Program-made: the position numbers and the translations under genes
Part shown: piece after piece, positions 32,154 to 46,600 of the stretch
How the letters are laid out: each line of letters starts with the position of its first letter
How positions within the stretch are numbered: the first letter of the stretch is position 1
The notes under the pieces: generated by a model
What the model saw: the letters and a program-made list of their open reading frames with translations, nothing else
Told to the model about the DNA's origin: nothing
Database searches by the model: none
From: a virus
Length of the DNA: 64,000 nt
Virus record (IMG/VR): IMGVR_UViG_3300030000_000007
Location: 5,432-69,431 of that record
Direction: 5' to 3' (one strand)

Positions 32154-32305
32154 ATATTCTAAATCAAGTGGATGATCTATGTAGGCAAAGAGTCGAACTT
32201 TACTGCCATCTACATAAAGAACGTTGAGTTTCTAGCTACCCATTGTTCCAACCGGCCGGTCTAATCACGTGTGAACGCTAATCCACAACACCACCTGAAA
32301 TTCTT

Positions 32306-32438: not shown

Positions 32439-32605
32439 AAAAATTCAAAAACAAATAGTTCTTTCAACTGCACATCCTGAGAAGAAATTTATCGACTTTG
32501 CCAGCAGTTTATTGAATTAAAGTAGTTGTCTCGGTTACTTACTACTAAGAACTATTTGTTTATTTATTAAAGTAATTATAATTTGTATGTTAAATAAAGT
32601 AAACT

Positions 32606-33231: not shown

Positions 33232-33262
33232 TTCAACTGTCCATCAAAATGATTATTTATAG

Positions 33263-33385
33263 TAGGGAAGGAAGGATTCGAACCTTCGACAGGCAGCTTG
33301 GATAATCATTTAAGCACGGTTATTAAAATAACAAAAATCCAAAAACGACGTTGATGCAACCGTTCTACCACTGAACTACTTCCCT
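33263..33385 (-). tRNA. tRNA-like RNA with an about 50-nt anticodon-loop insertion carrying the Y-like motif
   Basis: AGGGAAG/CTTCCCT acceptor; perfect D and T arms; insert TTTTTG-TTATT-TT-AATAA-CCG..GATTATC. Confidence 0.65.
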
Positions 33386-33507
33386 GAAATTCTTGGAACA
33401 TTTAGGGAATTTAATGTTCCGGTGTCTCCTTTACCCGTAAGACTTTCGCCCAACCTATCTTTCGATAAGTCGTTAAACTGAGACTTTGTAAGGTGCGACC
33501 TTACCCT

Positions 33508-33660
33508 TTATGCTGCCATCAAAGCTGCTAGCTTCTTCCGTTGCTTGGAAGCACCGAGAGAATCCTTATCCAACCTTTCGAGCTTTTGTGCTGGGGTCAA
33601 TTTGGCCCAAGCAGCGTTACGAACATTGGCTTCAGCACGTTTTACACTTTTATCTTTCAT
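33508..33660 (-). CDS. small basic protein (50 aa), not in ORF track
   Basis: GGAG SD; MKDKSVKRAEANVRNAAWAKLTPAQKLERLDKDSLGASKQRKKLAALMAA. Confidence 0.65.
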   Translation of the reverse strand: MKDKSVKRAEANVRNAAWAKLTPAQKLERLDKDSLGASKQRKKLAALMAA

Positions 33661-33694
33661 TTGGAAATCTCCATCTAGTTAAAAATCAGTTAAT

Positions 33695-33784
33695 TGGCGG
33701 AGAACGTGGGAATCGAACCCACTGACCGTGTTCCCACGGCCTACGGATTAGCAATCCGCTGCATTACCATCCTGCCCGTTCTCC
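33695..33784 (-). tRNA. tRNA-Ser (GCT), 8/4-type possible
   Basis: GCGGA-TTGCTAA-TCCGT; GCCA. Confidence 0.85.
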
Positions 33785-33792
33785 ATATCTGT

Positions 33793-34350
33793 CTAATGCA
33801 ATCTTGAATGAGCCGGGATCGTCTTGGTTAAAAACTCAAGTTGATCTGCAAGGATATGTCTATTAGACAAAATCAAAGCTTCGCTCCTATTAGGAACATA
33901 CGGTACAAACAATAGCTGCATTCTTGCTTCTTCAAGTGTCATACAATCTTTGTGATTGTTACATTGCTTACAAGCAGAAATACAATTCATCCAGGTGTTT
34001 GCTCCACCCCTAGATTGTGGGATAATGTGATCTCGTGTAGCATCTTCACCTACCAAATGCTTTCCACAATATGCACAAGTGTTACGATCTCGACCGAACA
34101 AATTCTTATTTGTCAAAGGAACACTTCGGGTCTTTGTTCTTCCAAGGTTACGAATAGCAACAATAGAAGGAACTGAAACCGTTGATTCCAAACCTGTTAC
34201 ACGGGATGTTCCACCATGGTAAACGGTTTCGTCACCAAGAGACCATGCAATCAAATCTTTTACCTTGTAGACGACTCCTTCTTCCCATGTTGACCAACGC
34301 TGTGGGTGTCCGGCACTGTCTAACGTTAATACTAATGGGTACCTGTCCAT
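33793..34350 (-). CDS. HNH endonuclease (McrA-like)
   Basis: LFGRDRNTCAYCG..TRDHIIPQSRGG..WMNCISACKQCNNHK. Confidence 0.9.
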   Translation of the reverse strand: MDRYPLVLTLDSAGHPQRWSTWEEGVVYKVKDLIAWSLGDETVYHGGTSRVTGLESTVSVPSIVAIRNLGRTKTRSVPLTNKNLFGRDRNTCAYCGKHLVGEDATRDHIIPQSRGGANTWMNCISACKQCNNHKDCMTLEEARMQLLFVPYVPNRSEALILSNRHILADQLEFLTKTIPAHSRLH

Positions 34351-34364
34351 GATATTCGTCCTTT

Positions 34365-34607
34365 CTAAAAATCTTCAGTTTGTTTAAATTTCTTTTCCTG
34401 CATGGTAAGCTCTTTGAAAAATTTTCTAGGATTACCACACATTACACAATTTGGGTTTCCACAGTTCATTGCGTGTCGTTTGGTAAATTTACCTGGAACA
34501 CTTACATTAGCATTGAACGTTTTACCTATTATAACCTGTTTCTTTGTCTTTGTTTCGTCATTGTGAATTCTTTTTGAATGTTTTATTTTCTGTGATTCAT
34601 TTGACAT
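34365..34607 (-). CDS. hypothetical protein with CGNPNCVMCGNPR motif
   Basis: 80 aa, GGAG SD. Confidence 0.7.
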   Translation of the reverse strand: MSNESQKIKHSKRIHNDETKTKKQVIIGKTFNANVSVPGKFTKRHAMNCGNPNCVMCGNPRKFFKELTMQEKKFKQTEDF

Positions 34608-34697
34608 AAACTTTTCTCCTCGAGTTCCTAAGACATTTAAAAAATGCCTGAATAACCTTCAAGCTATCCAGGCATTTTAAGAAAGATTACTTTTTAA

Positions 34698-35165
34698 TTA
34701 AAAAGAATACTTAATACCTGTACTGACTTGATTTCCATTAAACTGACTTACACGTTCTTGACCGACCTTGTAAGAATAATCCGCTACCCAACTAACAGAT
34801 TTTGTCAATGGGTATGAAACTCCTACACCAACAGCCAATGCGTATCCGTTACTACCAATCGTTGGATCGATGTATGATACTCCGGCTTTACCTAGAACAT
34901 CTAATGCACCAAACTTAACAACTGAATATGAACCAGTAAGTGAATATTCAACAACTGAAGTAGACTTCACCATTGAACGATCATATGCAAGTTCTGCTCC
35001 AAAATCTCCAAACTTAGTACCGAGTGTCACACCCGTTGTAGTGAGTCCAGCTTGATTACTTTCAAGACTGTTTCCACCAGATTGACCCATACGGATACCT
35101 ACTTCTGCTCCCATAGCCATTGTGGAAGCTGCAACCAAAGCTGCGATCATAACTAATTTCTTCAT
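34698..35165 (-). CDS. OmpA/Ail-like 8-stranded outer-membrane beta-barrel
   Basis: Signal peptide MKKLV..AMG, amphipathic strands, C-terminal GIKYSF. Confidence 0.85.
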   Translation of the reverse strand: MKKLVMIAALVAASTMAMGAEVGIRMGQSGGNSLESNQAGLTTTGVTLGTKFGDFGAELAYDRSMVKSTSVVEYSLTGSYSVVKFGALDVLGKAGVSYIDPTIGSNGYALAVGVGVSYPLTKSVSWVADYSYKVGQERVSQFNGNQVSTGIKYSF

Positions 35166-35196
35166 ATTTTCTTTTCCCCTTTTTGTTAATGAAAAA

Positions 35197-35270
35197 TGGA
35201 AGCGGGTGACCGATTCGCACGGCCGATGCATCGAGCTTATGAGACTGATGTGGTGGCTTCCCTACCCGCT
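35197..35270 (-). tRNA. irregular tRNA (CAT)
   Basis: Loop CT-CAT-AA, atypical D arm and T loop, CCA. Confidence 0.55.
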
Positions 35271-35275
35271 ATATT

Positions 35276-35349
35276 TGGTGCCCCATCGTAGAATCGAACT
35301 ACGTTTTGATGCTTACAAGGCAACTGTAATACCAATATACTAAAAGGGC
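35276..35349 (-). tRNA. tRNA-Thr (TGT)
   Basis: Cloverleaf, loop CT-TGT-AA, ACCA. Confidence 0.85.
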
Positions 35350-35378
35350 AAAATCTTATAATCTCTATTTATATTATT

Positions 35379-35493
35379 TGGTGGGGAGGGGTGGGCTCGA
35401 ACCACCGACATATGCATAACTACTGCTGCAACCATAGAGTCGACCTGTTTGTAGTCTCGTTTTCAATGCTCTAACCAACTGAGCTACCTCCCC
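35379..35493 (-). tRNA. tRNA-like RNA with expanded anticodon arm (about 40 nt extra)
   Basis: GGGGAGG/CCTCCCC-ACCA, canonical D and T arms, no definable anticodon. Confidence 0.65.
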
Positions 35494-35569
35494 GTTGCAA
35501 AGGTTGGATTTGAACCAACGATCTCTAGCTTATGAGGCTAGTGAGATGACCAAGCTTCTCTACTCTGCT
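35494..35569 (-). tRNA. tRNA-Met (CAT), initiator-like
   Basis: 1:72 mismatch, CTAGC-CTCATAA-GCTAG. Confidence 0.75.
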
Positions 35570-35691
35570 ATATTCTTTTTCCTGCTTTCTCCCTCACGTT
35601 ATCTAACTCTTGGAGAATCTTGATCATTCTGTCAAATACCGAATAACGATCCGTATTCAACTAGACTGGCCCGCTAAGGCTCAGGAAAATC

Positions 35692-35765
35692 TGGTGCGGG
35701 TGGAGGGAATCGAACCCTCAACTAAACGTTGGCAACGTTTGATTTTACCACTAAACTACACACGC
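35692..35765 (-). tRNA. tRNA-Gly (GCC)
   Basis: Cloverleaf, TT-GCC-AA, CCA. Confidence 0.85.
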
Positions 35766-36083
35766 ATTTAATCTTTTTCACATTCATCATAGACATGGTC
35801 TAAATGATCCATTATGTTCTTCAACTCTCGATGTATTTCTTCAAAAAGTTGAAGTATATCTTGTTTAGATTTAGGATTCACTAAACTGTCCATTTTCATA
35901 TCACTTAGGTTGAACATTTGTTAAGTACCAGTTATATTGATCTCTACAAATATTTTCATACTCTTCATCAACATTTATATCATGGAATTCAGATAAACTT
36001 TTTAACGAATCTTTTAGACTGCTATTAATATATCTTTCAACCCATTCTTCAAATGTTAATATCATATGCTACCTCTTAAAATT

Positions 36084-36159
36084 TGGTGGAGGTGACAGGA
36101 CTCGAACCCGCTACCTACTGCTTGCAAAGCAGCCGCTCTCCCAGCTGAGCTACACCCCC
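36084..36159 (-). tRNA. tRNA-Ala (TGC)
   Basis: Canonical, G3:U70. Confidence 0.95.
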
Positions 36160-36163
36160 ATTA

Positions 36164-36259
36164 TATCGACAGAGAAGGATTTGAACCTTCACATTGCGCC
36201 CATGTTTAGTGGGTGCTAAGTATACCTATTCCTCACGTTACGCAAACATCTATCAATAT
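36164..36259 (-). ncRNA. tRNA-like RNA without CCA
   Basis: ATATTGATAGA/TCTGTCGATAT stem, D-like arm, hairpin, GAAGGTTCAAATCCTTC T arm. Confidence 0.5.
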
Positions 36260-36265
36260 TGTTTG

Positions 36266-36336
36266 AGCGGGTACCCAGATTCGAACTGGGTTCTATAGCT
36301 TGGAAGGCTAGGGCACAACCCATATACCATACCCGC
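36266..36336 (-). tRNA. tRNA-Gly (TCC)
   Basis: GCGGGTA/TACCCGC-T; loop CT-TCC-AA. Confidence 0.85.
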
Positions 36337-36966
36337 TCAAACAACACTAACCTTTCTACCATTTAAATATCCATTCAAGAGATATTCATCTAAATTTTCT
36401 TTTTTGATCTTGATAGGTTTTACACCATCAGTTACCCAACAAGATCCATATTGAGAATTCTTTTCACCACTTCCAGCCAGACTCATCTTTTCTTTAGCTG
36501 CAACAGAATGATTTTTCCCCAACATTCCAAAGGTTGCTAAAGATCCGTTTTTCTGTCTTGTTGCAAAAGACTTTTTCCTAATTTCAGGATTGGCATTTAG
36601 TTTATTCATTGCTACTATTCCACCAACCTTACCGCCAGCCATTGCACATTTTTTCTGATGCTCGATATTGTTGAATCCACCACCTCCACCTGGAGCGATG
36701 TTCATACATTTAGTATCAGCTCTTAAATCTTCAGTGAGAATTTCCTTTTCTCTATCTTTCAGTGACTGTCTAGATGGTAAGAATTCCAGAATTTCTTTCG
36801 TATGAATATCTATTCCGTGTTTCTTAATTGACCTAGTTATTAATTTACCACTACCAAAATATCCATCTTCTAAATTATCTGTTGAATGCATTCCGATATA
36901 AAATCTACCATCATTTCTGGTAATTTTATACAAGTAATGGAATTTTCGTTGATCTGCTCTTTGCAT
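36337..36966 (-). mobile_element. GIY-YIG (Seg-like) homing endonuclease
   Basis: YLYKITR..FYIGMHST..YFGSG; NUMOD3-like GKNHS; abuts tRNA-Gly. Confidence 0.85.
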
Positions 36967-37005
36967 AATAATCTCCTTTGAAATTATTTATACAAAAAGG
37001 TAACC

Positions 37006-37080
37006 TGGTGGACCGCCGGAGACTCGAACTCCGATTTACTACGTGCAAGGCAGTTGTAATTCCCCCTATACTAGCAGCCC
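37006..37080 (-). tRNA. tRNA-Ala (TGC), divergent second copy
   Basis: G3:U70, loop CT-TGC-AC, ACCA. Confidence 0.8.
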
Positions 37081-37086
37081 ATTTAT

Positions 37087-37338
37087 TCAAACTAACCAAA
37101 TATCCTTTACAACTGGAACTAAATTTGGAAACTCTGCATCATGAATATTAACAATTTCCATTAATGCAAGTGAAATTTTCAATTTGAATCCTTGACGTTT
37201 TCCGTCTCTTGAATCATTAATCAATTTGTTCATGTAAGGATAAAATTCTTTTTCACCCCATAGGAAATTAATTGCTTTAGCGATTCTAGGAAAATCATCA
37301 TTCACTATTGACAAATTATCATTTAGTTTTTTCATCAT
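37087..37338 (-). CDS. hypothetical protein (betaproteobacterial-type)
   Basis: FPRIAKAINFLWG..LINDSRDGKRQGF motif. Confidence 0.65.
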   Translation of the reverse strand: MMKKLNDNLSIVNDDFPRIAKAINFLWGEKEFYPYMNKLINDSRDGKRQGFKLKISLALMEIVNIHDAEFPNLVPVVKDIWLV

Positions 37339-37381
37339 ATCATTCCCGTATAAAATTTATTTATATCATCTTCAATCTGGT

Positions 37382-37816
37382 TTACCAATTATCAATATTT
37401 CGTGTTCCAAAATTACGCCAAAAATCGAATGTTAAATTACAAAAATTTTCTTCAAATACACATTTAGAATATCCAAATATTGCATCCCATAAATTCATTA
37501 AATCCAATGTTAAATGCTTTAGTATGTTACCACCATCTACACCCCAGATAAAAAATGCAATCGTAATTAATGTAGACAGATTATAAAATAAACCATCATA
37601 CATTAACTCGTTTGAAGTTTTATTAAACGTTGGTAAAATTACATACAGTGACCACAATAAATAACCAACAAAAATCCAATGTAATAGATGAAGTTGAAAT
37701 GCATAAATTGTCATATACATCAAACAAATTACCAAGGTAATCCAACCTAATGGAAATTGCCAGCTTTTTTCAGTTTTATCAAAATAGAATTTTGATATTA
37801 ATTTTTTCAACATCAT
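37382..37816 (-). CDS. membrane protein
   Basis: Three hydrophobic segments. Confidence 0.6.
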   Translation of the reverse strand: MMLKKLISKFYFDKTEKSWQFPLGWITLVICLMYMTIYAFQLHLLHWIFVGYLLWSLYVILPTFNKTSNELMYDGLFYNLSTLITIAFFIWGVDGGNILKHLTLDLMNLWDAIFGYSKCVFEENFCNLTFDFWRNFGTRNIDNW

Positions 37817-37833
37817 ATGATCCCATTAAAAAT

Positions 37834-37918
37834 TGGTGCGTAAGAAGGGAGTCGAACCCTCAATCCTTTCGGCATTGGCTTCTAAGACCAACGTGTATGC
37901 CAGTTCCACCACTCACGC
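37834..37918 (-). tRNA. tRNA-Leu (TAG)
   Basis: Type II cloverleaf, CT-TAG-AA. Confidence 0.9.
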
Positions 37919-37924
37919 AAATAC

Positions 37925-38008
37925 TGGAAGCAACGGGCGGGAGTCGAACCCGCTATTACAAGCTTATGAGACTTGTGTGGTTTAAAGTATCCGTTCCACT
38001 TCCCTGCT
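37925..38008 (-). tRNA. tRNA (CAT) with enlarged D loop
   Basis: CAAGT-CTCATAA-GCTTG; TCCA. Confidence 0.7.
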
Positions 38009-38016
38009 ATAATCAA

Positions 38017-38071
38017 AAGAACAAAAGTTTCAATGGGATAATAATGAAGATAACCCATCAAGTCGGTTCTT
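38017..38071 (-). ncRNA. minimal Y-like motif RNA
   Basis: AAGAAC-CG..GGGTTATC..CCCAT..TTTTG-TTCTT. Confidence 0.55.
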
Positions 38072-38077
38072 ATATTC

Positions 38078-38152
38078 TGGTCCGCCGTGCAGGAATCGAA
38101 CCCACATTCACTCTTTAGAAGAGAGTTGTCCTATCCGTTGAACGAACAGCGG
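38078..38152 (-). tRNA. tRNA-Arg (TCT)
   Basis: ACTCT-CTTCTAA-AGAGT; ACCA. Confidence 0.85.
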
Positions 38153-38186
38153 TAAATTTGTTATTGTTTTTCTTATTCTAAAATCT

Positions 38187-38270
38187 TGGTGCCTCGGGAG
38201 AGATTCGAACTCTCAACCCTTTCGGGGACGGCTTCTTAGACCGCTGTGTAAACCGTTCCACCACCGAGGC
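38187..38270 (-). tRNA. tRNA-Leu (AAG)
   Basis: Type II cloverleaf, CT-AAG-AA. Confidence 0.85.
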
Positions 38271-38272
38271 AT

Positions 38273-38329
38273 AAAGAACAAAAAGCATATTGGAATAATA
38301 CAGCCGATAACCCAATATAACGGTTCTTT
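38273..38329 (-). ncRNA. minimal Y-like motif RNA
   Basis: AAAGAAC-CG..GGGTTATC..CCAAT..TTTTTG-TTCTTT. Confidence 0.55.
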
Positions 38330-38339
38330 TTAAATTTTG

Positions 38340-38454
38340 TGGTGCTCCGACCCGGACTCGAACCGGGAAGCTTGCGCGGAAGATTTTTTTGAACACCCGC
38401 ATTAGCAGATGTTCCGTAAAAGTCTTCTGGGTTTACCAATTTCCCCACCGGAGC
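38340..38454 (-). tRNA. tRNA-Leu with an about 30-nt hairpin insertion in the anticodon loop
   Basis: GAAGA-CT[..GAACATCTGC-TAAT-GCGGGTGTTC..]AA-TCTTC; Leu-type body; ACCA. Confidence 0.75.
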
Positions 38455-38628
38455 ATTATCTTATATAAATTCACATAATAAACTTATATAAAATTATTTG
38501 TTATATTTATTATAACACATAAAGTTATCATATCAGAATTATTATTAGGCTTCCATCACCTAATGCGTTACTTAAGGTTTTATTTAAACAGGATGTACTT
38601 CACCTTTAAACCTGGAATGGATTATGCC

Positions 38629-38718
38629 TGGCGCAGTGTGGTGGATTCGAACCACCGATAGAGACCAACTTCTTGAAGGTTGGAAGAGCAAAACCTCAGC
38701 ACATTATACTTACACCGC
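38629..38718 (-). tRNA. irregular tRNA-like RNA, anticodon ambiguous (TCA or CAA)
   Basis: GCGGTGT/ACACTGC-GCCA; CCAAC-CTTCAAGAA-GTTGG. Confidence 0.5.
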
Positions 38719-39235
38719 AAAACTTTTATGTAGCAGGCTGCACACATTATCATTAAGATGCGCTTCGATATTTATCAACAGTTAAACTGTCCGCATCGCC
38801 GTTTACCTAGCTAATTGTTCTGTACTATTACGCACTGACTAACCACTGTTTCACTAGACTACAAAATTCATCACTTTGAAAACAGAGCAATACAAGTTAT
38901 CACAAGTAAGATCACCAAAAAGATAAAAATAACTGGGTTACAAGGTTGAGTTTTTTCATCTCGCTTTTTAAGCCAACCAGCATCTTCGAATGACATATCA
39001 AAACTCCTAGTTAAAAAATTCTTGCGCCCAAGTTTTCCACTCCTGGACGACTTTAGTAACCGCGGCTACACTTTTCACCCTCATTGACGTAAAGTAGTAT
39101 CTCGAAATGTTGTTAACCTCAAACATATAAACGGCTTCATGTAGGACAGTCAGCACAACCCACTAATTTTTAAGTGCTTCAGCATTCACTCCACATTCTA
39201 CTGTCGTGGCAGACCTGATTACAGGCTTTGGAAAC

Positions 39236-39414
39236 TGGCACCGTGAGAAGGAATTGAACCTCCATAATCTTCTTTAGATCGAAGTGCTTTTTAATTCAAA
39301 AACAACAAACTTAGTTTGCTGGGGTAGCTAATCCCACCTACTTTAAATCCGTACGATTGAGAATTGACAATCATTATTACGTAATTTGATTATCACCCAT
39401 TAAGCTATCACAGT
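39236..39414 (-). tRNA. tRNA-like RNA with an about 100-nt D-loop insertion
   Basis: ACTGTGA/TCACGGT-GCCA; GCTT..AAGC D stem split by the insert; 8-nt loop GATCTAAA. Confidence 0.6.
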
Positions 39415-39563
39415 ATAATCTTTTCGGAATGTAATTAGAAGTAAGGCTCAACTTTAACCTTCCACAGTGTCACGGTTACTACCCATTGTGACCCAGACTT
39501 AAGCAACAGTAGTTGAGCTTCTGTTACACACTTCTGATAACTGCTTGAATTACATACCAAATT

Positions 39564-39782
39564 TGGTGGGACATCCAGGGTTTGAACCTGTATCTTTTAT
39601 ATGTCTTTCGTACGTTCGGATTCCTGTTTAACCGAGGTGATACTTCTCTCGGATTTCGCTACACACGGTATCAATCGTGATGTGCTACTGCCCTATGCTC
39701 CGTACGGGTGTCATATAAACGGTTTTAGCCATCACAAACGATTCTTTCCTAAAGTTTGCAAATTCGTTTAACCTAAAGCCCC
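39564..39782 (-). ncRNA. about 220-nt RNA with tRNA-like acceptor, T arm and CCA (tmRNA-like ends)
   Basis: 5' GGGGCTT..CAGGTTCAAACCCTGGATGTCCC-ACCA 3'. Confidence 0.5.
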
Positions 39783-39922
39783 AAAAATCTTAGAGAGTAA
39801 GAGTACACGAGCATTACTGCTTTCGCTCTCTCAATACCATTTTATTTTTACCCTTAGTTCATCAATTGGGATTTTAATTGACTACACCTATGCAATTAGC
39901 TTCCGATAAGGTTGACCGTTTT

Positions 39923-39999
39923 TGGTGGGTATAGAGAGACTCGAACTCTCAGGATTTAGATTCTGAATCTAACGCGTCTACCGATTGCGCCATATACCC
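39923..39999 (-). tRNA. tRNA-Leu (CAG), short variable arm
   Basis: TTAGA-TTCAGAA-TCTAA; ACCA. Confidence 0.8.
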
Positions 40000-40107
40000 A
40001 TAACTGAATGGAACATACTTATCCTAAATAGAATTAACCTTTCGGCACAGTCCATCTTCGGCACACATTATATTCCCGAAAGTGTCTCAGTCTGTAATCT
40101 TTCGTTT

Positions 40108-40657
40108 ATCATTTTAAACAAATCTTCGCATTAGGACAAATTATGCTACTCTTACCCAGGGCTAGAATCGAACTAGCATTTAAGATCGGTTTAAAATGAT
40201 TCCCAATATCGTCACTAGGTATTGTCTTGGGTAATCATTTTAAAACATCTTAGGGAGTTGAACCCTCTCACGTATCTATGAATATATGCCACCTTGACAC
40301 CAAGAAGACTCTTGGCTAACCGAATCGAACGGCTTTAACCCTACGTTACGCTGCTACCACAACCCCTAGTCTTAGGGTTAAGATGTTTAAAAATGATTCC
40401 TAATATTGTCACCCGTTATTGTCTGTGCTTAGTTACCATAAAGGTTGATCACATCATATCGTCACGGACTATCTTTTCAGGGTTATCATTTTAAAATTCA
40501 CAAATCCTCTAGGACCAGCGTACCGTCTGTGTTAAACATAATCTAACCAGTATGTGAATTTTAAAATGAATTCTAATGTTATCATTTTAAAACATGCTTA
40601 CAAAGTCTTTCTCTTTGCTGGTCTCGACATCCCTGTGAAGTATGTTTTAAAATGATA
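40108..40657. repeat. array of four ATCATTTTAAA...TTTAAAATGAT stem-bracketed cassettes
   Basis: Units at 40108-40200, 40233-40398, 40485-40569, 40580-40657. Confidence 0.8.
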
Positions 40658-40852
40658 CCTTACACTGTGCCGAACCGGCAACCAGGAATCTCACGATTGA
40701 GGATAAACAATATCATCAATGTAAGGATCTAAACAGTATTAAGTTTTTCACTACTTGATATGGTAAGTGTTGTTTTACATGAACCAGACGAACTGGATAA
40801 CTTTCTTTTCCAAGAATTTCGCGGAATTTACGAAATACCGTTTTAGTTTAAC

Positions 40853-40940
40853 TTCTAAATTTTTAAGGAACTTACCAAATCAACTCGATCGTTAATTTGT
40901 TTGATAAGTAATTATACACTACTTTCTTCACATTGTACAT
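40853..40940 (-). promoter_or_regulatory. promoter plus boxB-like hairpin plus boxA-like leader (copy 2)
   Basis: 46-bp identity 40875-40920 = 46320-46365; followed by GTTCCTTAAAAATTTAG. Confidence 0.65.
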
Positions 40941-40957
40941 AAAATGTGAAAATATAT

Positions 40958-41144
40958 TTGGTACGACAGGATGGATTCGAACCACCGACCTATCAGTTAG
41001 AAACTGATTGCTCTCCCAAATTGATTATCTCTTAGCATTCAATCAGTCGCGTTCTGATCTATTTCTAATTCTTCATCGTTCTAGCCAGCAACTATTGATG
41101 TTGTTCCTACATCTCATGTGTGCTATCCACTGAGCTACTGCCGC
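40958..41144 (-). tRNA. tRNA-Arg (TCT) with an about 110-nt D-loop insertion
   Basis: GCTCAGTGGATAG[insert]AGAGC; ATCAG-TTTCTAA-CTGAT; canonical T arm; ACCA. Confidence 0.7.
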
Positions 41145-41155
41145 AAAAATCTAAC

Positions 41156-41335
41156 TGGCGCAGTGGGCAGGAATCGAACCTTGGCCTAATGTTTTCCATT
41201 GTTTCCTCCATAACCTCTTCCTAGGGCGGCTATCTTGTACGCAACTTCCGACATTATTTCGGACTTAACGCGCATGATCCTTTTGCGTAACCTACGTGAC
41301 CGAGACGAAGCCTCAATCCAGATCAATGACACTGC
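41156..41335 (-). ncRNA. 180-nt RNA with acceptor stem, T arm and GCCA
   Basis: GCAGTG/CACTGC-GCCA; AGGTTCGATTCCT. Confidence 0.5.
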
Positions 41336-41535
41336 ATAAACTAAAATCTTTGGTGCTGGTACAAATATCCAGCTTTCTCTCACTTTTTCTCTATTAAGTC
41401 GTTCGCTCCAGACCCAGGATTACCAACCTTTTGTGCGGAGAAGGTTTCTTGCTTACGTTGGCACTTATCGCTCAGAGAGATACAACCGGGGACGAACCCT
41501 AGTTAGTATGTTGGTGCATACATTTACCAAATAAC

Positions 41536-41661
41536 TGGTGTGTGAGGTAGGTCTCGAAGCCTACAATAGTACCATACTCTCAGTCGCTAAACTGATACTA
41601 GGATTTGAACCTAGATAACCTGGGTCCTGCCCAGGAGCGTCTACCGTTTCGCCACTCACAC
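41536..41661 (-). tRNA. Leu-type tRNA-like RNA with an extra T arm in the variable region
   Basis: GTGTGAG/CTCACAC-ACCA; CTAGGTTCAAATCCTAG plus GTAGGCTTCGAGACCTAC. Confidence 0.6.
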
Positions 41662-41749
41662 ATATAAAATAACACATTATTAAAAGCGTTCCAGCTTTAT
41701 CTGTCCGTCTAGCACTTGCACGAGCAGCGGTGCTTGCCATTCTGATGTG

Positions 41750-41965
41750 TCAAAATTGTTTAACTATAAAACTATCAGGAACTGTCAATAAATCATCTTC
41801 ACTTTCGAGATAATTTGCTTGAAAATGATTTCCACATTTTGTACATTTTTGTGCAAGAATACCAGGTAGACCTGTTGTGATTCGTTCAGTTTTGGTTACT
41901 TCACCACATACTGGACACCAATCATTTTCAAACATTCCAAAAGTCATTTTCCTAGTTATTTGCAT
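41750..41965 (-). CDS. small zinc-ribbon protein
   Basis: CPVC..CTKC; GGAGG SD. Confidence 0.7.
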   Translation of the reverse strand: MQITRKMTFGMFENDWCPVCGEVTKTERITTGLPGILAQKCTKCGNHFQANYLESEDDLLTVPDSFIVKQF

Positions 41966-42107
41966 TTAAACCTCCAAAATAAAATTTACATGGGCAAGAT
42001 TACGAGGAGTGGACCCTGCCCTTATAGTCGTCGTTCAAGCATTTTATCTCCACAACAACGCAAGACCCTTAGGCAACTATCGAGGCTCCCATGTAAAATT
42101 AACTTCT

Positions 42108-42601
42108 AATCATTTCAAAATGTGCGGCTCGATAGACACCGTTGTCCGTGTCTTAATCTTCCCATTGAGTGTTCACGCCCGATTTGAGCAGCCCAGAGTG
42201 ATCAACCTCTGTATAAACCTTCCAGTAACCGAGGGCATACGGCCAATACAACTAAAGCAGCACATTTTGAAATGATTGGTCAACCCTCCGTGTCTTTCGT
42301 TGCAACATACTTGACACAGCCTTTGAGAAACGTATTGAATAGTCATCAATGTATATCTCATCTTACCGTTGGTTATCTTAGTCTACTTTAAATCCTTATC
42401 GAAGGGATTATTTTTCAACTGCGACCATCATTTAAATCTCACTGGCTATCTTCGGGTCCTTGTACTTCGGCGTCCTTGCAAATAGCGGCTTACCCGTCAG
42501 TGAAATCATTTTAAAGTCGTTTAACATTCTCTCTTTGGCAAACATCGGTCAAGATATTCTAAGAATGGCTCTTTGCTCACATAAACAACTTTAAAATGAT
42601 T
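42108..42601. repeat. two further stem-bracketed cassettes
   Basis: 42108-42277 (AATCATTTCAAAATGTGC/GCACATTTTGAAATGATT) and 42504-42601. Confidence 0.75.
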
Positions 42602-42753
42602 GCGGCATATCGGTCGTTCCGCTGAGTATTAAAGATTGACTTTCATCAACCAGTTGTCCCCTGCCTTATGTTATTTCCCCGCTAAAGGAGTAACAGTCCG
42701 GATGACAACTCTCATGTACCAGGCTCGGTGTCCCAATACATTATAACCATTTT

Positions 42754-42979
42754 ATGGTTGGCTTGCTATTACGCTAAAAGGAATCTCGGCCTTACCAGTT
42801 ACGGGGTACCTTGATACTTTACCAAGTGGCTCACACGAGATTCACATACTAACCTGCCCACATGGCTGGGGTTCTGCTTTCAGTAACCTATAGATGCCCT
42901 TCAGATTACTTACAAACTCAATGTGCTATTGTCCTACTTATTAAGAGAATGGCTGCTTTTAAGCCTACTCACCTACCAT
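42754..42979 (-). ncRNA. RNA resembling the 23S rRNA GTPase-associated centre (H43/H44)
   Basis: GTAGGCTTAAAAGCAGCCAT (42949-42968) and GCGTAATAGC (42765-42774), closed by ATGGTAGG/CCAACCAT. Confidence 0.65.
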
Positions 42980-43067
42980 TGTTAAGTCGTTTAGTCGGGC
43001 TCTTCAATCTCGACGATACGGATATTTGCCATTCGGGGCTCACGTATACTAAACAACTTAAAAATGC

Positions 43068-43147
43068 GACCTCCGTGTAGGATGGACTCGAACCATCATC
43101 ACCACCCGACAAGGGTGGTGTCTTACCATTAGACCACTACTGAGGTC
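43068..43147 (-). ncRNA. tRNA-like RNA with extended acceptor stem, no CCA
   Basis: GACCTC/GAGGTC; D arm GTCT..AGAC; CCACC-CTTGTCG-GGTGG; T arm. Confidence 0.55.
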
Positions 43148-43183
43148 AACGGGTCATGACTCCCGTTCAATTCTGAAAGTTAA

Positions 43184-43714
43184 TTACTCTTTCAATATTG
43201 TACAATTTAGATGGTATCTAGTAAAGTTACCCTTACCTCTACCTTCTTTACCACAATTGGTACATTTCCAATACATTTTTGATGGAGCGTCATCTCCTTG
43301 AAAATTATGTGTACCATTAGTTATTCTATTATGTGTTAGGTTTGACTCACCAATAAAGTGATGAGTTCCTTTAGCTACACGAATGTTATTGTATGCTGTT
43401 TGCAATTCACTGCTTTGAAAATTGTGGGTTCCCATTGCTATTCGATGTGCATTAATTATTTTCCCATTTTTACTTGCAATTTTTCTTTTTTCTTCTGGTG
43501 AAATTTGCATTCTTTCAGACATTATTAAACATGCAGCCCAATCACATTGATTTAAATGGATCATAAAATGATCTTCAATGGGTATACATTGTAAATTTGA
43601 AATATCATTATTGTTGTGGTTTCCATCTTTATGATGTATCTCATATGATCTGCCACTTTTATCTTTTGGTATTGGACCGTATGCATCTGTATAAATTTTT
43701 CTATAACTAGCCAT
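43184..43714 (-). mobile_element. HNH homing endonuclease
   Basis: YEIHHKDGNHNNNDISNL..H..H; GTHNF repeats; late promoter. Confidence 0.8.
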
Positions 43715-43991
43715 GCTTGCATTCCTATAAACATTAAAATAGTCGATCGACTATATCTGTATTTATAGTGTTTAATGGTTAATTACTCCAACCGATTCCA
43801 TTTTAAAGCACACTACATTGCGTCTCTTCCCAGGGCTAACTGCCCGATGGGTTCGGAACCTAACCGAATATTGTGCTTTGAAATAGACACAGTGTAGGCT
43901 TCATCTACTCTAGCCGCTGTCAGTCATCGGCATCCCAGTTTCCGCTGGTTCGTTTATGCAGGGTCCAGGTTGCTTAGGACTTAGTTTACTC

Positions 43992-44091
43992 TGGTGTAGA
44001 AATTGGGATTCGAACCCAACTAATCCGGCATTTTTACAATGGGTGATATCACTTCCCACCGCTGTATGCCCATCGGATAATTACTTCCTAC
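43992..44091 (-). ncRNA. tRNA-like RNA lacking a D arm, CCA-ended
   Basis: GTAGGAA/TTTCTAC-ACCA; TTGGGTTCGAATCCCAA. Confidence 0.5.
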
Positions 44092-44134
44092 TCACATACA
44101 GGCTCGAACTTGTCCCTAGACTAACCACTTATTC

Positions 44135-44209
44135 TGGTGCGGGTGGCGGGAATCAAACCCGCTCGTACTGGGTGGAAGCCAGTCATGCGATCATTAACAT
44201 CTCACACGC
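44135..44209 (-). tRNA. tRNA-Gly (TCC), divergent
   Basis: ACTGG-CTTCCAC-CCAGT; ACCA. Confidence 0.7.
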
Positions 44210-44566
44210 TTAAATTCTTCCATGATTTTCTCAAGCACCCGGATTATATTCAATTAATTCTATCCAACATGGAGTGTGCTATACATATTAATTTATACCC
44301 CTTAAACTTTTTCCGAATTTAAGAGGATTTTAAGAAATAAATTTCTCTTCTGTTTCCTTTTGGTGGATTCCAGCCCTTAAGTTTTTAATAATCACTAAAC
44401 TTAGTTAAACGAGAGCCTTGAAATAAATCTTATTACGACGTCTTTATAGATGACTGTTACCTAGGCTATAGTCGGGTATTAGGTGTGTTCTCACCGTTAC
44501 TGTTTCATTTGTAACTTCGTCATGATTCACATGATTTGTTGGAATTCACCAACATTGGAAAAAAAC

Positions 44567-44652
44567 TGGTGGATGCGGTTGGAGTCGAACCAACAATGCC
44601 GTGAGGCGGAGGATTTACAATCCTCTGGGGTTACCAATTTTCCTACACATCC
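44567..44652 (-). tRNA. tRNA-Tyr (GTA)
   Basis: GAGGA-TTGTAAA-TCCTC, long variable arm, ACCA. Confidence 0.9.
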
Positions 44653-44734
44653 AAAATTTAACGAAGCGGATTCTCACCTACTACGATCTGTACATTTAAG
44701 TACCTTCATGTTTCACCCAACATGTAAGACTGAC

Positions 44735-45400
44735 TCATCTTTTTATCCCTCTAACCCAATCATCATTCAGATAGTGATTTAATTTTTCTAGAGGAATTCT
44801 TTTAACTTCTCCAAGCTTGGATATCCAAGCAAGTTTTTTACCAAACATAGGATTTTTATCCCCATTTCTATCAACAGCATTCTGACTAATTTTCATCTGT
44901 ATCAATGTGCTGTCTGAGTGTTTGTGATCTTTTCTCCATGGATTAATAGCATTTTTAAATACATACATTTTGCCTTCAAGATGCATCTGTTGTGCTCGTT
45001 CACTTAAAAGCTTAGTGTGTTTAGCCTTATATTCAGGATTTTTTCGTTTCTGTTTCAATGATTGAATTGCTGCTTCAGCACATTTCTTTTGATGCTCTTC
45101 ATTTTTGAAGCCACCACCTCCACCTGGAGCAATGTTCATACATTTAGTATCTGCTCTCATTTCGTCAGTGATAAGTAATTTTTCTTTATCCTTTGATGCT
45201 TGACGTGTGTCAAAGAACTCTAAAATCTCTTTAGAGTGTTTTTCTTTACCATGTCTATTCAAAGACTTCCAAAGATAAGTACCACTCCCAAAATATCCAT
45301 CCTCTAAATTATCAGTAGAATGAATACCAAAATAATACTTCCCATCAAATCTTGTAATTTTATACAAGTAATGGAATTTTCGTTGATCTGCTCTTTGCAT
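44735..45400 (-). mobile_element. GIY-YIG (Seg-like) homing endonuclease
   Basis: YLYKITR..YYFGIHST..YFGSG; NPMFGKK; late promoter. Confidence 0.85.
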
Positions 45401-45439
45401 AATAATCTCCTTTGAGATTATTTATAGCAAATCTAATCC

Positions 45440-45524
45440 TGGTGAGGGCAGATGGTAACGATCCATCAGAGCTTAAAGCGCCGGGGTTACAGTCCGGACC
45501 GTCTCCTTAACGGTATATACCCCC
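45440..45524 (-). tRNA. tRNA-Tyr (GTA), irregular T loop
   Basis: CCGGA-CTGTAAC-CCCGG; ACCA. Confidence 0.7.
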
Positions 45525-45593
45525 TAAATTCGATTAACATAAAAACCTAAACGGTAACTTAGTTAAAGTTTACAAAAGCTGTAAAGTTATTAC

Positions 45594-45677
45594 TGGTGGA
45601 AACGGTTGGATTCGAACCAACGTGCGATTAAGAACGGTTTTACAGACCGTCGGTTTCAGCCACTCACCCACATTTCC
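45594..45677 (-). tRNA. tRNA-Tyr (GTA)
   Basis: ACGGT-CTGTAAA-ACCGT; ACCA. Confidence 0.9.
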
Positions 45678-45771
45678 ATATTTAATCTTCCTACCCAAAC
45701 AGAATTAGTCGCTGAGGGAAGCAACGCATTCGAACTGCTCTGTTTTGTGCCTCAAGTAAGGAGATTGAATA

Positions 45772-45846
45772 TGGTGCCTAGTCACGGTTTCGAACCGCGG
45801 ACCCATTCCTTGTAAGGGAATTGCTCTACCCCTGAGCTAACCAGGC
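45772..45846 (-). tRNA. tRNA-Val (TAC)
   Basis: ATTCC-CTTACAA-GGAAT; ACCA. Confidence 0.9.
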
Positions 45847-46300: not shown

Positions 46301-46385
46301 AACAATTTTAAAGAACCTTCCAAATCAACTCGATCGTTAATTTGTTTGATAAGTAATTATACACTGCTTTTTGTGCTTTGTACAT
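46301..46385 (-). promoter_or_regulatory. promoter plus boxB-like hairpin plus boxA-like leader (copy 1)
   Basis: TGTACA..TGTATAAT; CAAATTAAC-GATCGA-GTTGATTTG; GTTCTTTAAAATT. Confidence 0.65.
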
Positions 46386-46426
46386 CATTTTTGAAAATAA
46401 ACTAAAACTAATTTGCTTTCAAAAAC

Positions 46427-46600
46427 AAAAAAGGGAACCTTAAGGTTCCCTGAGATTTAAAGTGTAGAAACTTTTAACTCAGGGTCATAAAGCCAAGCCC
46501 CGCTACTAATCCTCTTGAATAGAGACTTAGAGATGAATAATATGAGTATGAGTTCATTTTCTTTTAGAAAAGGTTAAATTAATAAGATGTTTTATTTATA
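46427..46600 (-). promoter_or_regulatory. late promoter, Ser/Tyr-rich leader peptide (46474..46557) and attenuator
   Basis: TATAAATA; MNSYSYYSSLSLYSRGLVAGLGFMTLS*; CCCUGAG..CUCAGGG stem overlaps the GGGAACC-UUAA-GGUUCCC-U6 terminator. Confidence 0.7.

What the first reader, a model, noticed from the sequence alone, without database searches (positions are those of the whole stretch)
46427..46600. Ser/Tyr-rich leader-peptide attenuator at the head of the tRNA/ncRNA region
Seen: late promoter, then a 27-codon ORF MNSYSYYSSLSLYSRGLVAGLGFMTLS* whose codons 3-14 are 6 Ser, 4 Tyr and 2 Leu. The last codons form the 5' arm of a stem (CCCUGAG..CUCAGGG, 46448-46484) that shares three Gs with a GGGAACC/GGUUCCC-U6 terminator. 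Downstream lie 3 tRNA-Tyr, 5 tRNA-Ser and about 5 tRNA-Leu genes. Known: this is the logic of amino-acid attenuators, and some antiphage systems cleave specific tRNAs (e.g. tRNA-Tyr by Retron-Eco7 PtuAB). Inference: ribosome stalling on Tyr/Ser codons frees the antiterminator, so the phage senses tRNA loss and induces replacement tRNAs late in infection. Caveat: the SD is weak and a separate early promoter lies just downstream of the terminator.
Basis: partly seen in the sequence, partly recalled or inferred. Interest (0 to 1): 0.9.

Follow-up and report, generated by a model that had tools for sequence, protein, structure and literature searches.

The report
Ribosome-gated terminator before phage tRNAs
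A tiny Ser/Tyr/Leu-rich reading frame wired to a switchable transcription stop heads one tRNA gene block of an uncultured giant phage, and a sister module heads its other tRNA block, so the phage may make tRNAs mainly when ribosomes run slowly; this rests on sequence analysis only.

Summary
TATAAATA (46600-46593), a 27-codon ORF (46557-46474; codons 3-14 = 6 Ser, 4 Tyr, 2 Leu), a hairpin over its stop codon (46484-46448) and a strong terminator sharing GGG with it are all there.

New here:
- A sister module lies at window 35-204: a 39-codon ORF with a strong ribosome-binding site, its stop inside a -17.7 kcal/mol hairpin that shares GGG with a GGGAAC/GUUCCC-U6 terminator. It heads a second array of 24 tRNAs just outside the window.
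- Each ORF is spelled mostly in amino acids whose tRNAs lie in its own array: 25/27 (rank 1 of 311 small ORFs) and 33/39.
- Modelled terminator folding switches with ribosome position: site A 0.09-0.22 stalled, 0.99 at stop; site B 0.00, 0.82.

Against:
- The site A ribosome-binding site is weak.
- Its hairpin alone does not beat the terminator.
- An early promoter lies just behind the terminator.
- No orthologue could be fetched, and there are no expression data.

Verdict: probably a leader-peptide-type attenuator (about 0.45). The tRNase-sensing story is unsupported speculation. This scan has noted the same kind of element on other phage DNA. I found no published case.

The parts
46593..46600 (-). 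T4-type late promoter motif TATAAATA, 35 nt before the leader ATG
   Evidence: 18/18 copies on the minus strand, 6.2 expected on both strands; most other copies sit 4-45 nt before an SD and ATG.
46474..46557 (-). Leader ORF 1: 27 codons plus UAA. The SD is weak.
   Evidence: SD -0.9 kcal/mol against a median of -4.25 for 84 long ORFs. 25/27 codons are amino acids with a tRNA gene in array 1, r = 0.92, rank 1 of 311 small ORFs.
46516..46551 (-). Codons 3-14: uninterrupted run of Ser (6), Tyr (4) and Leu (2); a G-poor stretch
   Evidence: 1 of 64,860 windows. A modelled ribosome with its A site on codons 2-15 leaves P(terminator) at 0.09-0.22.
46518..46530 (-). Region 1 (CUAAGUCUCUAUU). In free RNA it pairs towards 46500-46488.
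   Evidence: MFE structures.
46488..46500 (-). Region 2 (GGGCUUGGCUUUA). It can pair with the terminator's 3' arm and is the effective antiterminator strand at site A.
   Evidence: P(terminator) falls from 0.96-0.98 (inner pairs) to 0.07 once this strand is included. It is not significant on its own.
46448..46484 (-). Hairpin HP1-A. It contains the stop codon and shares GGG 46450-46448 with the terminator.
   Evidence: -13.5 kcal/mol, z -3.9, 0/200; unique in the window. The outer stem is conserved with one compensatory change in HP1-B.
46421..46451 (-). Intrinsic terminator A: 8-bp stem, UUAA loop, U6-G-U5 tail
   Evidence: (-13.0 kcal/mol, z -3.9).
46356..46384 (-). Sigma-70-type early promoter behind terminator A, part of a block repeated near 40920
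   Evidence: 10/12 match. (same block read at both places).
25861..45846 (-). tRNA array 1: 22 ARAGORN tRNAs for Met, Leu, Ser, Pro, Thr, Gly, Ala, Arg, Tyr and Val, plus odd tRNA-like RNAs and homing endonuclease genes
318..423 (-). Two strong sigma-70-type promoters of the same TATAATTACTnTATC family, upstream of ORF 2. A third look-alike lies at about 229-260.
   Evidence: 11/12 and 10/12 matches, L105 5854-5826 and 5777-5749...
85..204 (-). Leader ORF 2 of the sister module: 39 codons plus UAA, with a strong SD
   Evidence: SD -6.0 kcal/mol. 33/39 codons are array-2 amino acids and all 14 types are present. It is an orphan: 1 hit at 95% identity in 1.84 billion representatives.
57..101 (-). 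Hairpin HP1-B. It contains the stop codon of ORF 2 and shares GGG with terminator B.
   Evidence: -17.7 kcal/mol, z -6.5, 0/200..
35..61 (-). Intrinsic terminator B (GGGAAC..GUUCCC, U6). tRNA array 2 (24 tRNAs) follows outside the window at G000:C1 4709-129.
   Evidence: P 0.00-0.02 in free RNA; array 2.

Best explanation
The finding is one of two sister 'small ORF, hairpin over the stop codon, overlapping intrinsic terminator' modules. They head the two tRNA arrays of an uncultured T4-like giant phage from peat. They most likely act as ribosome-position-dependent (leader-peptide type) attenuators.

Proposed mechanism. If the leading ribosome keeps up and reaches the last codons, it covers the 5' side of the upstream structure. 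The terminator then folds and RNA polymerase stops. If the ribosome lags or stalls in the ORF (at site A on the Ser/Tyr/Leu run, codons 3-14), the upstream structure holds the terminator's G's and 3' arm, and polymerase runs on into the tRNA genes. Because each ORF is spelled mainly in amino acids served by its own array, this would be negative feedback on tRNA supply.

Shown: the sequence anatomy, the paralogy, the composition match and the equilibrium folding. Inferred: that the ORFs are translated, that termination really changes, and that tRNA shortage is the signal.

At site A the module can gate only transcripts coming from the late promoter or from the upstream operon, because an early promoter lies behind the terminator.
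For: 1. Anatomy confirmed.

2. Recurrence. Of 7 strong minus-strand terminators found in the window, only the two that precede tRNA arrays are contested by an upstream structure. Median P(stem pair) is 0.15-0.53 at site A and 0.01-0.02 at site B, against 0.61-1.00 for the other five. My own exact arithmetic for 2/2 against 0/5 gives p = 1/21.

3. Paralogy with covariation. The outer stems are CCCUGAG/CUCAGGG and CCCUUAG/CUAAGGG, which is a G-C to U-A double change. The inner stems are unrelated in sequence but both pair. Both hairpins share GGG with a GGGAAC/GUUCCC-U6 terminator. Both ORFs cross the 5' arm in the same frame, xCC CUx AGU.

4. ORF 2 has a strong SD (-6.0 kcal/mol). It sits between the best promoters of the region and array 2.

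5. Composition mirror, ORF 1 against array 1: 25/27 codons, r = 0.92, rank 1 of 311 small ATG ORFs on both measures. Of 20,000 real-protein 27-mers, 26 reach the fraction and 0 reach r.

6. Composition mirror, ORF 2 against array 2: 33/39 codons, and all 14 amino-acid types present (3/389 small ORFs; 428/20,000 segments). Cross-matches are poor (9/27 and 18/39). Counts of array-exclusive residues are 18:2 against 6:21, Fisher p = 4.6e-6.

7. Modelled ribosome positions, site A: P(terminator) is 0.09-0.22 with the A site on codons 2-15, 0.9 at codon 16, and 0.99 from codon 22 to the stop. Free RNA gives 0.5.

8. Modelled ribosome positions, site B: 0.00 for codons 2-30 and 0.82 for codons 32 to stop. 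Free RNA gives 0.002.

9. Geometry. There are 22 nt (A) and 23 nt (B) between the stop codon and the terminator stem. That exceeds the 10-15 nt of free RNA said to be needed for a hairpin to fold behind a ribosome (PMC4824070, section 10 read).

10. ORF 2 has no protein family: 1 hit, at 95% identity, in 1.84 billion representatives, and no PHROG match.
Against: 1. The ORF 1 SD is weak at -0.9 kcal/mol. That is weaker than 71% of 84 long ORFs, and 63.5% of all 1,674 ATGs on that strand are as good or better. Genes behind other late promoters carry GGAG-type SDs.

2. HP1-A alone leaves the terminator's inner pairs 0.96-0.98 formed. The extra strand 46500-46488 is needed to block it. With everything upstream of HP1 shuffled, 16 of 100 sequences gave a stalled-state P(terminator) as low as the native one. 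The 0.99 at the stop appears in the shuffles too. So the site A switch is not statistically special beyond the hairpin and the stop position.

3. The whole 171-nt leader is not unusually structured: z -0.94, and 30/200 shuffles fold as well.

4. An early promoter lies 48 nt behind terminator A. Other TATAAATA sites lie inside array 1, one directly before a tRNA-Thr. Array 1 therefore does not depend on readthrough.

5. The ORF 2 match is modest: fraction 18/389 and 812/20,000, and r = 0.30, which 98/389 reach. ORF 2 looks like an ordinary hydrophilic small protein. Array 2 is cut by the contig end.

6. About 9 other low-complexity frames exist in the window.

7. No orthologue was available, so conservation is untested. 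DNA runs carry identical sequence, so there is no polymorphism to read.

8. All folding figures are equilibrium values at 37 C, not kinetics.
Confidence: 0.45

Rival explanations
1. Ordinary transcription-unit boundary. The terminator simply ends the upstream protein-coding operon (macro-domain gene and 69-aa gene) and insulates the stable-RNA region. HP1 is a 3'-end stabilising or processing hairpin. The 27-codon ORF is a chance frame in a low-complexity, G-poor spacer.
For: The SD is weak. The stable-RNA promoter lies behind the terminator. About 9 other low-complexity frames exist. The leader as a whole is not unusually folded. Site B could be read as a normal small gene with its terminator. 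An earlier scan note on another phage reads long stems between tRNAs as RNase III sites.
Against: It does not explain why only the two array-head terminators are contested. It does not explain why a canonical terminator at site B is almost fully sequestered (P 0.002) unless a ribosome sits on the last codons. It does not explain why the strongest tandem promoters would serve only a 39-codon orphan ORF. It does not explain why ORF 1 ranks 1 of 311 for matching its array. HP1 stems of 14-17 bp are short for RNase III (recalled knowledge).
Confidence: 0.2
2. A small late RNA. The late promoter and terminator delimit a transcript of about 165 nt. Its unstructured C/U/A-rich 5' part would be a pairing or protein-binding region, followed by hairpins and a U-tailed terminator, as in many bacterial sRNAs. 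The ORF would be incidental.
For: It has its own promoter motif and a strong terminator with a U tail. There is a G-poor 5' stretch followed by three hairpins. The SD is weak. Attenuator transcripts can double as sRNAs (rnTrpL; abstract of PMC6614838 seen in the listing).
Against: No Rfam match at E <= 1 in 46400-46600. The composition mirror and the same-frame ORF in the sister module are unexplained. The one RNA run laid showed no contig on this stretch, which proves nothing either way.
Confidence: 0.12
3. A conditional terminator whose input is not the ribosome. A protein, an uncharged or cleaved tRNA, another RNA or temperature would shift the HP1/terminator balance.
For: Mutually exclusive, conserved structures occur at both array heads. 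The weak SD at site A fits. The balance moves with temperature in the model: for free full-length RNA, 0.5 at 37 C and 0.67 at 15 C.
Against: No ligand-binding motif or Rfam family was found. HP1 inner stems and loops differ completely between the two sites, so a shared ligand site is unlikely. The stop codon lies in the 5' half of both hairpins in the same frame.
Confidence: 0.1
4. A genuine small late protein gene. The 27-residue peptide itself is the product, and the terminator is just its gene end.
For: A late promoter lies 35 nt upstream and a terminator 22 nt behind the stop, the usual gene layout in this phage. The C-terminal half is hydrophobic.
Against: The SD is weak. Half of the peptide is a Ser/Tyr/Leu low-complexity run. 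The hydrophobic stretch is too short for a membrane helix (inference). The composition mirror is unexplained. At 27 residues, homologues could not be searched with the tools at hand.
Confidence: 0.08

Closest known systems
Leader-peptide (ribosome-mediated) attenuators of enterobacterial amino-acid operons: trpL, hisL, leuL, pheL, and the multivalent thrL and ilvGMEDA leaders (recalled textbook knowledge; pheL abstract PMC3082878 seen in the listing)
   Same: A short ORF with a run of regulatory codons. A stop codon placed so that a finishing ribosome prevents the antiterminator. An intrinsic terminator with a U tract. Several amino acids in one leader, as in thr and ilv.
   Different: The genes behind it are tRNA genes, not biosynthetic enzymes, so the signal would be decoding capacity rather than amino-acid supply. 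Without translation these modules read through (fully at site B, about half at site A), whereas trp terminates. Site A has a weak SD and a promoter behind the terminator. The setting is a phage with T4-type late promoters.
pheST (pheM leader) attenuator of E. coli phenylalanyl-tRNA synthetase (recalled, not looked up)
   Same: Leader-peptide attenuation applied to a component of the translation apparatus, giving feedback on charged-tRNA supply.
   Different: It controls a synthetase, uses one amino acid, and is cellular rather than viral.
Silent long tRNA operon of Anabaena, induced under translational stress (PMC8421152, abstract start in the listing; PMC10272220, abstract read)
   Same: An extra tRNA array switched on when translation is impaired.
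   Different: Control there is by the RHH repressor TrcR at the promoter, not by a leader ORF and terminator. The array is on a cellular megaplasmid.
[quoted passage not shown]
   Same: Phage tRNA-Tyr genes lie next to a homing endonuclease. Ser, Tyr and Leu, the only residues of the leader run, are the long-variable-arm tRNAs (recalled).
   Different: Those papers, as far as their abstracts go, describe strong promoters and gene amplification, not attenuation. No defence gene or tRNase is in evidence here.
Earlier notes of this scan on other phage genomes: 'leader-peptide attenuators gating phage tRNA arrays' (e1-371813, e1-5618024, e1-5381190 and others)
   Same: A small ORF spelled in the amino acids of the downstream tRNAs, followed by a switchable terminator at the head of each tRNA block.
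   Different: These are unchecked AI notes on unrelated DNA. One was later priced at 30/100 for the bold reading. New here are a leader made only of Ser/Tyr/Leu, two sister modules with complementary amino-acid sets in one genome, and a bypassing early promoter at site A.

Membership tests
Leader-peptide transcription attenuator | Short ORF in the transcript upstream of the regulated genes, with a working ribosome-binding site | tested here: inconclusive
   The ORF is present. SD is -0.9 kcal/mol at site A, against a median of -4.25 for 84 long ORFs. SD is -6.0 at sister site B. Translation itself was not testable.
Leader-peptide transcription attenuator | Cluster of regulatory codons for the sensed amino acid(s) | tested here: met
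   Twelve consecutive Ser/Tyr/Leu codons, 1 of 64,860 windows and 0 in 20 shuffles.
Leader-peptide transcription attenuator | Intrinsic terminator between the ORF and the regulated genes | tested here: met
   8-bp GC-rich stem and U6 at 46451-46427. It is one of only 7 strong terminators on that strand in 64 kb.
Leader-peptide transcription attenuator | Antiterminator mutually exclusive with the terminator and dependent on ribosome position | tested here: inconclusive
   At equilibrium, site A gives 0.09-0.22 (stalled) against 0.99 (at stop). However, HP1 alone is insufficient, and 16/100 shuffles of the upstream part do as well. Site B is clear: 0.00 against 0.82. Kinetics were not modelled.
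Leader-peptide transcription attenuator | Regulated genes functionally matched to the regulatory codons | tested here: met
   25/27 codons have a tRNA gene for that amino acid in array 1, r = 0.92, rank 1/311. Cross-match to array 2 is poor, and Fisher p = 4.6e-6.
Leader-peptide transcription attenuator | Regulated genes depend on readthrough, with no promoter between terminator and genes | tested here: not met
   At site A a 10/12 sigma-70-type promoter lies at 46384-46356, and late motifs lie inside the array. At site B only a 9/12 match overlapping a late motif lies between the terminator and the first tRNA.
Leader-peptide transcription attenuator | ORF and alternative structures conserved in relatives | not testable with these tools
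There is only an in-genome paralogue, with one compensatory pair.
Leader-peptide transcription attenuator | Readthrough responds to starvation or tRNA shortage in vivo | not testable with these tools
   The phage is uncultured. The single RNA run laid had no contig on the leader.
Terminator-ended small regulatory RNA | Own promoter, discrete short transcript, U-tailed terminator, membership of a described RNA family | tested here: inconclusive
   The promoter motif and terminator are present. No Rfam family at E <= 1 in 46400-46600. There are no transcript data.

The most novel reading that the evidence does not exclude
The phage splits the genetic code between two tRNA arrays. It guards each array with a codon-matched 'test' ORF that measures, through ribosome speed, whether that half of the tRNA pool is intact. 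Leader 1 is devoted to the three long-variable-arm tRNAs (Ser, Tyr, Leu). It is driven by a late promoter, so that late in infection, when host-type promoters are off, cleavage of these tRNAs by variable-loop tRNases of the Septu/retron PtuAB kind would switch on replacement tRNAs. This would be a viral sensor-and-repair loop for tRNA-targeting immunity.
Probability: 0.12. Interest if true: 0.85.

Novelty: new variant of a known kind. Interest (0 to 1): 0.6.

Why it matters
Phage tRNA genes are now known to rescue phages from tRNA-cutting defences (abstracts of PMC11555353 and PMC13096335). How phages regulate these genes is largely unknown.

A leader-peptide attenuator in front of tRNA genes would be a direct feedback from decoding speed to tRNA supply. 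That control principle has been described for amino-acid operons. In my searches (listings only) it was not described for tRNA genes or for phages.

This genome offers a built-in control. It has two sister modules with complementary amino-acid content in front of two complementary arrays. That makes the idea directly testable with reporters, without needing the phage.

Tried and rejected
1. Orthologues of the leader.
- blastn against GenBank phages: no match.
- Three exact patterns from the region in IMG/VR: 0 hits each.
- Macro-domain neighbour: 100 relatives found, best 80 kept, identity 64% or less. nhmmer gave 0 hits for the leader among 82 loci, and the best blastn E-value was 0.40. Only 4 of the 82 loci hold any tRNA.
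- 69-aa neighbour: 2 IMG/VR loci, 19 metagenome loci at 57% or less over the full length, and 1 bacterial locus. None has a terminator or tRNA array downstream.
- 215-aa neighbour: no relative.
- Close homologues of the 69-aa protein exist (99, 86, 71, 67 and 63% identity), but their DNA could not be fetched.

2. Shared terminator motif in IMG/VR. One match has tRNAs downstream, 0 have a 7-nt hairpin partner and 1 has a 6-nt partner.

3. Site B 3'-arm motif in IMG/VR. 9 loci, none with tRNAs downstream. Eight carry a different hairpin without a U tract and one is an ordinary gene end.

4. Polymorphism and expression.
- 21 runs hold part of the stretch.
- The three DNA runs laid (X6-X8) are identical to the window where they cover it, so there is nothing to read.
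- The RNA run X21 has no contig on 46340-47000. A part without cover is no evidence either way.

5. A look at the one related locus with a tRNA array (L044) found no such module. That is one locus, so it counts for little.

6. CCCTGAG...CTCAGGG occurs once in the window.

7. Whole-leader folding is not exceptional, z -0.94.

8. Homologues of ORF 2: 1 near-identical hit only. ORF 1 (27 aa) is below every protein tool's minimum and was not searched.

9. Supplementary files of papers were not opened. They could hold promoter or terminator maps of phage tRNA regions that bear on the 'not in print' statement.
Full report
WHAT THE WINDOW IS. The window is 64 kb of a 69.4-kb IMG/VR virus record, estimated 29% complete. 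Near-identical sequence occurs in 19 peat metagenome runs. Genes and 23 ARAGORN tRNAs all lie on the minus strand. TATAAATA, the T4-type late promoter motif (recalled), occurs 18 times, always on the coding strand. That compares with 6.2 expected on both strands, and 0 of 100 shuffles reach 18. Most copies sit a few to 45 nt before a GGAG-type ribosome-binding site and an ATG. I therefore read the phage as a T4-like giant phage with an unusually rich stable-RNA region.

THE OBSERVATION.
- The late motif is at 46600-46593.
- The ORF is at 46557-46474 (MNSYSYYSSLSLYSRGLVAGLGFMTLS).
- The stem CCCUGAG/CUCAGGG is at 46484-46448, with the UAA stop inside it.
- The terminator is AGGGAACC-UUAA-GGUUCCCU plus U6, at 46451-46427, and shares GGG with the stem.
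- The hairpin has an additional inner 5-bp stem and folds at -13.5 kcal/mol (z -3.9, 0/200 shuffles). The terminator folds at -13.0.
- A 12-codon window made only of Ser, Tyr and Leu is unique among 64,860 stop-free windows in six frames, and absent from 20 shuffles. About nine other low-complexity frames do exist.
63.5% of all 1,674 ATGs on the strand score as well or better.
- ARAGORN finds 2, not 3, tRNA-Tyr, plus 5 tRNA-Ser and 4 tRNA-Leu.

A SISTER MODULE. I asked whether this terminator is unusual. To do so I computed, for all seven strong minus-strand terminators found in the window, how often the stem forms at equilibrium with 60-155 nt of upstream RNA.
- Five are uncontested, with median pair probability 0.61-1.00.
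- The finding's terminator is contested (0.15-0.53).
- One at window 59-41 is almost fully sequestered (0.01-0.02).

Reading that place showed the same architecture:
- a 39-codon ORF (window 204-85) with a strong SD (-6.0 kcal/mol);
- its UAA inside a 45-nt hairpin (-17.7 kcal/mol, z -6.5, 0/200);
- a hairpin 3' arm that shares GGG with a GGGAAC/GUUCCC-U6 terminator.

The outer stems are CCCUGAG/CUCAGGG (site A) and CCCUUAG/CUAAGGG (site B), a G-C to U-A compensatory change. The inner stems are unrelated but both pair. Both ORFs cross the 5' arm in the same frame (xCC CUx AGU).

Upstream of ORF 2 lie the best sigma-70-type promoters of the region (11/12 and 10/12). They belong to the same TATAATTACTnTATC family as the promoter behind terminator A.

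I fetched the 5.4 kb of the record that lie beyond the window. This showed that site B heads a second array of 24 tRNAs. So both tRNA arrays of this record begin with the same kind of module. By my own arithmetic, 2 of 2 array-head terminators contested against 0 of 5 others gives an exact p of 1/21.

COMPOSITION MIRROR.
- Array 1 encodes tRNAs for Met, Leu, Ser, Pro, Thr, Gly, Ala, Arg, Tyr and Val.
- Array 2 encodes tRNAs for Trp, Ile, Asp, Lys, Cys, Leu, Pro, His, Asn, Thr, Glu, Phe, Gln and Arg.

ORF 1 against array 1:
- 25 of its 27 codons use array-1 amino acids. Residue counts correlate with tRNA gene counts at r = 0.92.
- It ranks first of 311 ATG ORFs of 20-40 codons in the window on both measures.
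- Of 20,000 random 27-residue pieces of the phage's own proteins, 26 reach the fraction and none reaches r.
That is matched by 3/311 small ORFs and 328/20,000 protein pieces.

ORF 2 against array 2:
- 33 of 39 codons use array-2 amino acids, matched by 18/389 small ORFs and 812/20,000 pieces.
- It contains all 14 amino-acid types, including Trp, Cys, His and Gln (3/389; 428/20,000).
- Its count correlation is unremarkable at r = 0.30, which 98/389 reach.
- The cross-matches are poor (9/27 and 18/39).
- Counting only residues exclusive to one array gives 18:2 for ORF 1 and 6:21 for ORF 2 (Fisher p = 4.6e-6).

The signal is strong for ORF 1 and modest for ORF 2. The statistics were chosen after seeing the ORFs.

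FOLDING WITH A MODELLED RIBOSOME. I masked 30 nt around the A site and computed terminator pair probabilities for RNA ending at the terminator stem.
- Site A: free RNA 0.5; A site on codons 2-15, 0.09-0.22; codon 16, 0.9; codons 17-21, 0.31-0.91; codons 22 to stop, 0.99.
- Site B: free RNA 0.002; codons 2-30, 0.00; codons 32 to stop, 0.82.

At site A the boundary falls just after the Ser/Tyr/Leu run. The stop codons lie 22 and 23 nt before the terminator stems. That is enough for a hairpin to fold behind a terminating ribosome according to PMC4824070 (section 10 read: 10-15 nt needed; a terminator 28 bp behind a stop worked at about 90%, one 5 bp behind at under 10%).

CONTROLS THAT CUT AGAINST SITE A.
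- With only HP1-A upstream, the terminator's inner pairs stay 0.96-0.98 formed.
- Blocking needs the strand 46500-46488 to pair with the terminator's 3' arm, which drops it to 0.07.
- When everything upstream of HP1-A was shuffled (100 dinucleotide-preserving shuffles), the stalled-state value averaged 0.49 and 16 shuffles were as low as the native sequence.
- The 0.99 at the stop appeared in the shuffles too.
- The 171-nt leader as a whole is not unusually stable: z -0.94, and 30/200 shuffles fold as well.

So at site A the switch rests on the hairpin, the position of the stop and a pairing that could be chance. Site B is thermodynamically far clearer. All figures are equilibrium values.

CONTEXT THAT LIMITS THE READING.
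- Behind terminator A lies a good early promoter (46384-46356), repeated near 40920 with no leader or terminator before it.
- Other late motifs lie inside array 1, one directly before a tRNA-Thr.
- Site A can therefore gate only transcripts from the late promoter or the upstream operon. At most it gates the first stretch of the array: an unknown RNA region, tRNA-Val and tRNA-Tyr.
- At site B the strong promoters lie upstream of the ORF, so array 2 does depend on passing the module.

RELATIVES AND EXPRESSION.
- No orthologous DNA could be obtained by any route (see Tried and rejected).
- ORF 2 has one near-identical relative with two residue changes, and no family, in 1.84 billion representatives.
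- DNA runs laid on the region are identical to the window. The one RNA run gave no contig on the leader.
- Conservation and expression thus remain untested.

MECHANISM AND ODDS. I think the most likely reading (about 0.45) is a leader-peptide-type attenuator, one of two sister modules. A ribosome that finishes the ORF in step with RNA polymerase lets the terminator fold. A ribosome that lags on codons served by the array leaves the competing structure in place, and polymerase enters the tRNA genes. Unlike trp, the untranslated state reads through.

The rivals are:
- an ordinary operon-end terminator with a chance ORF (0.2);
- a small late RNA (0.12);
- a conditional terminator with a non-ribosomal input (0.1);
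- a true 27-residue protein (0.08).

Ser, Tyr and Leu are the long-variable-arm tRNAs (recalled). [quoted passage not shown] Two tRNA-Tyr genes flank a homing endonuclease here. Nothing in the data tests the link, and I give the full story about 0.12.

COMPARISON AND NOVELTY. The element works like the multivalent leader-peptide attenuators of amino-acid operons. It fails one defining feature at site A (dependence of the genes on readthrough) and leaves translation unproven, so I do not file it as an established member. The regulated genes being tRNAs, in a phage, would be a new variant of a known kind.

My three literature searches on this point (listings and a few abstracts only, no supplements) found no such case. 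The nearest in print is the Anabaena tRNA operon, induced by translational stress through the repressor TrcR (abstract of PMC10272220).

This scan has itself noted the same kind of element on several other phage genomes. Those notes are unchecked leads, and one was later priced at 30/100. They do not count as evidence here.

Noticed in passing
window 45968-46307 (minus strand): In the one RNA library laid, a 152-nt contig (depth 14.2, one mismatch) joins 45968 to 46307 in RNA sense. That is the end of a 340-nt segment joined back to its start. Both borders lie next to GTTCTTTAAAA, just downstream of the early promoter. It could be a circular or permuted RNA, or a tandem duplication in a variant.
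   Followed up: no
window 14110-14677 (minus strand): A tRNA with anticodon CUA (14677-14603) is followed by a late promoter motif (14481), a strong SD and an ORF from 14439 with an in-frame TAG at codon 4. Read with TAG as a sense codon it gives 109 residues with no Pfam match. This may be a gene that needs the phage's own suppressor tRNA.
   Followed up: partly
window 44567-45677; also 36337-36966, 31013-31678 and L105 3836-4504: Two diverged tRNA-Tyr genes flank a phrog_314 homing endonuclease. Four paralogous endonucleases of this family and two HNH endonucleases are scattered through the two arrays. This recalls the SegB/tRNA-Tyr association in the abstract of PMC13096335.
   Followed up: partly
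L105 129-4709 (G000:C1, outside the window): Second tRNA array of 24 genes, including four tRNA-Phe, three tRNA-Pro, and two each of Ile, Asn and Thr. Its amino-acid set is nearly complementary to array 1. It is cut by the contig end.
   Followed up: partly
window 309-323, 386-400, about 46347-46361 and about 40902-40916: A promoter family sharing the -10 and start region TATAATTACT(n)TATC heads the stable-RNA regions. There are 5 matches at 2 mismatches or fewer against 1.19 expected.
   Followed up: partly
window 46834-47397 and 46628-46837: Just upstream of the leader lie a macro-domain protein (100 IMG/VR relatives found, identity 64% or less) and a 69-aa PF23835/phrog_2251 protein that is widespread in phages but never in this context.
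   Followed up: yes
L226-L233 (IMG/VR giant-virus and other contigs): A hairpin TACTAAGGGAACC..GGTTCCCTTA followed by a CCCTCC-type box recurs, twice in two of the contigs. It is unrelated to the phage module and has no U tract.
   Followed up: no
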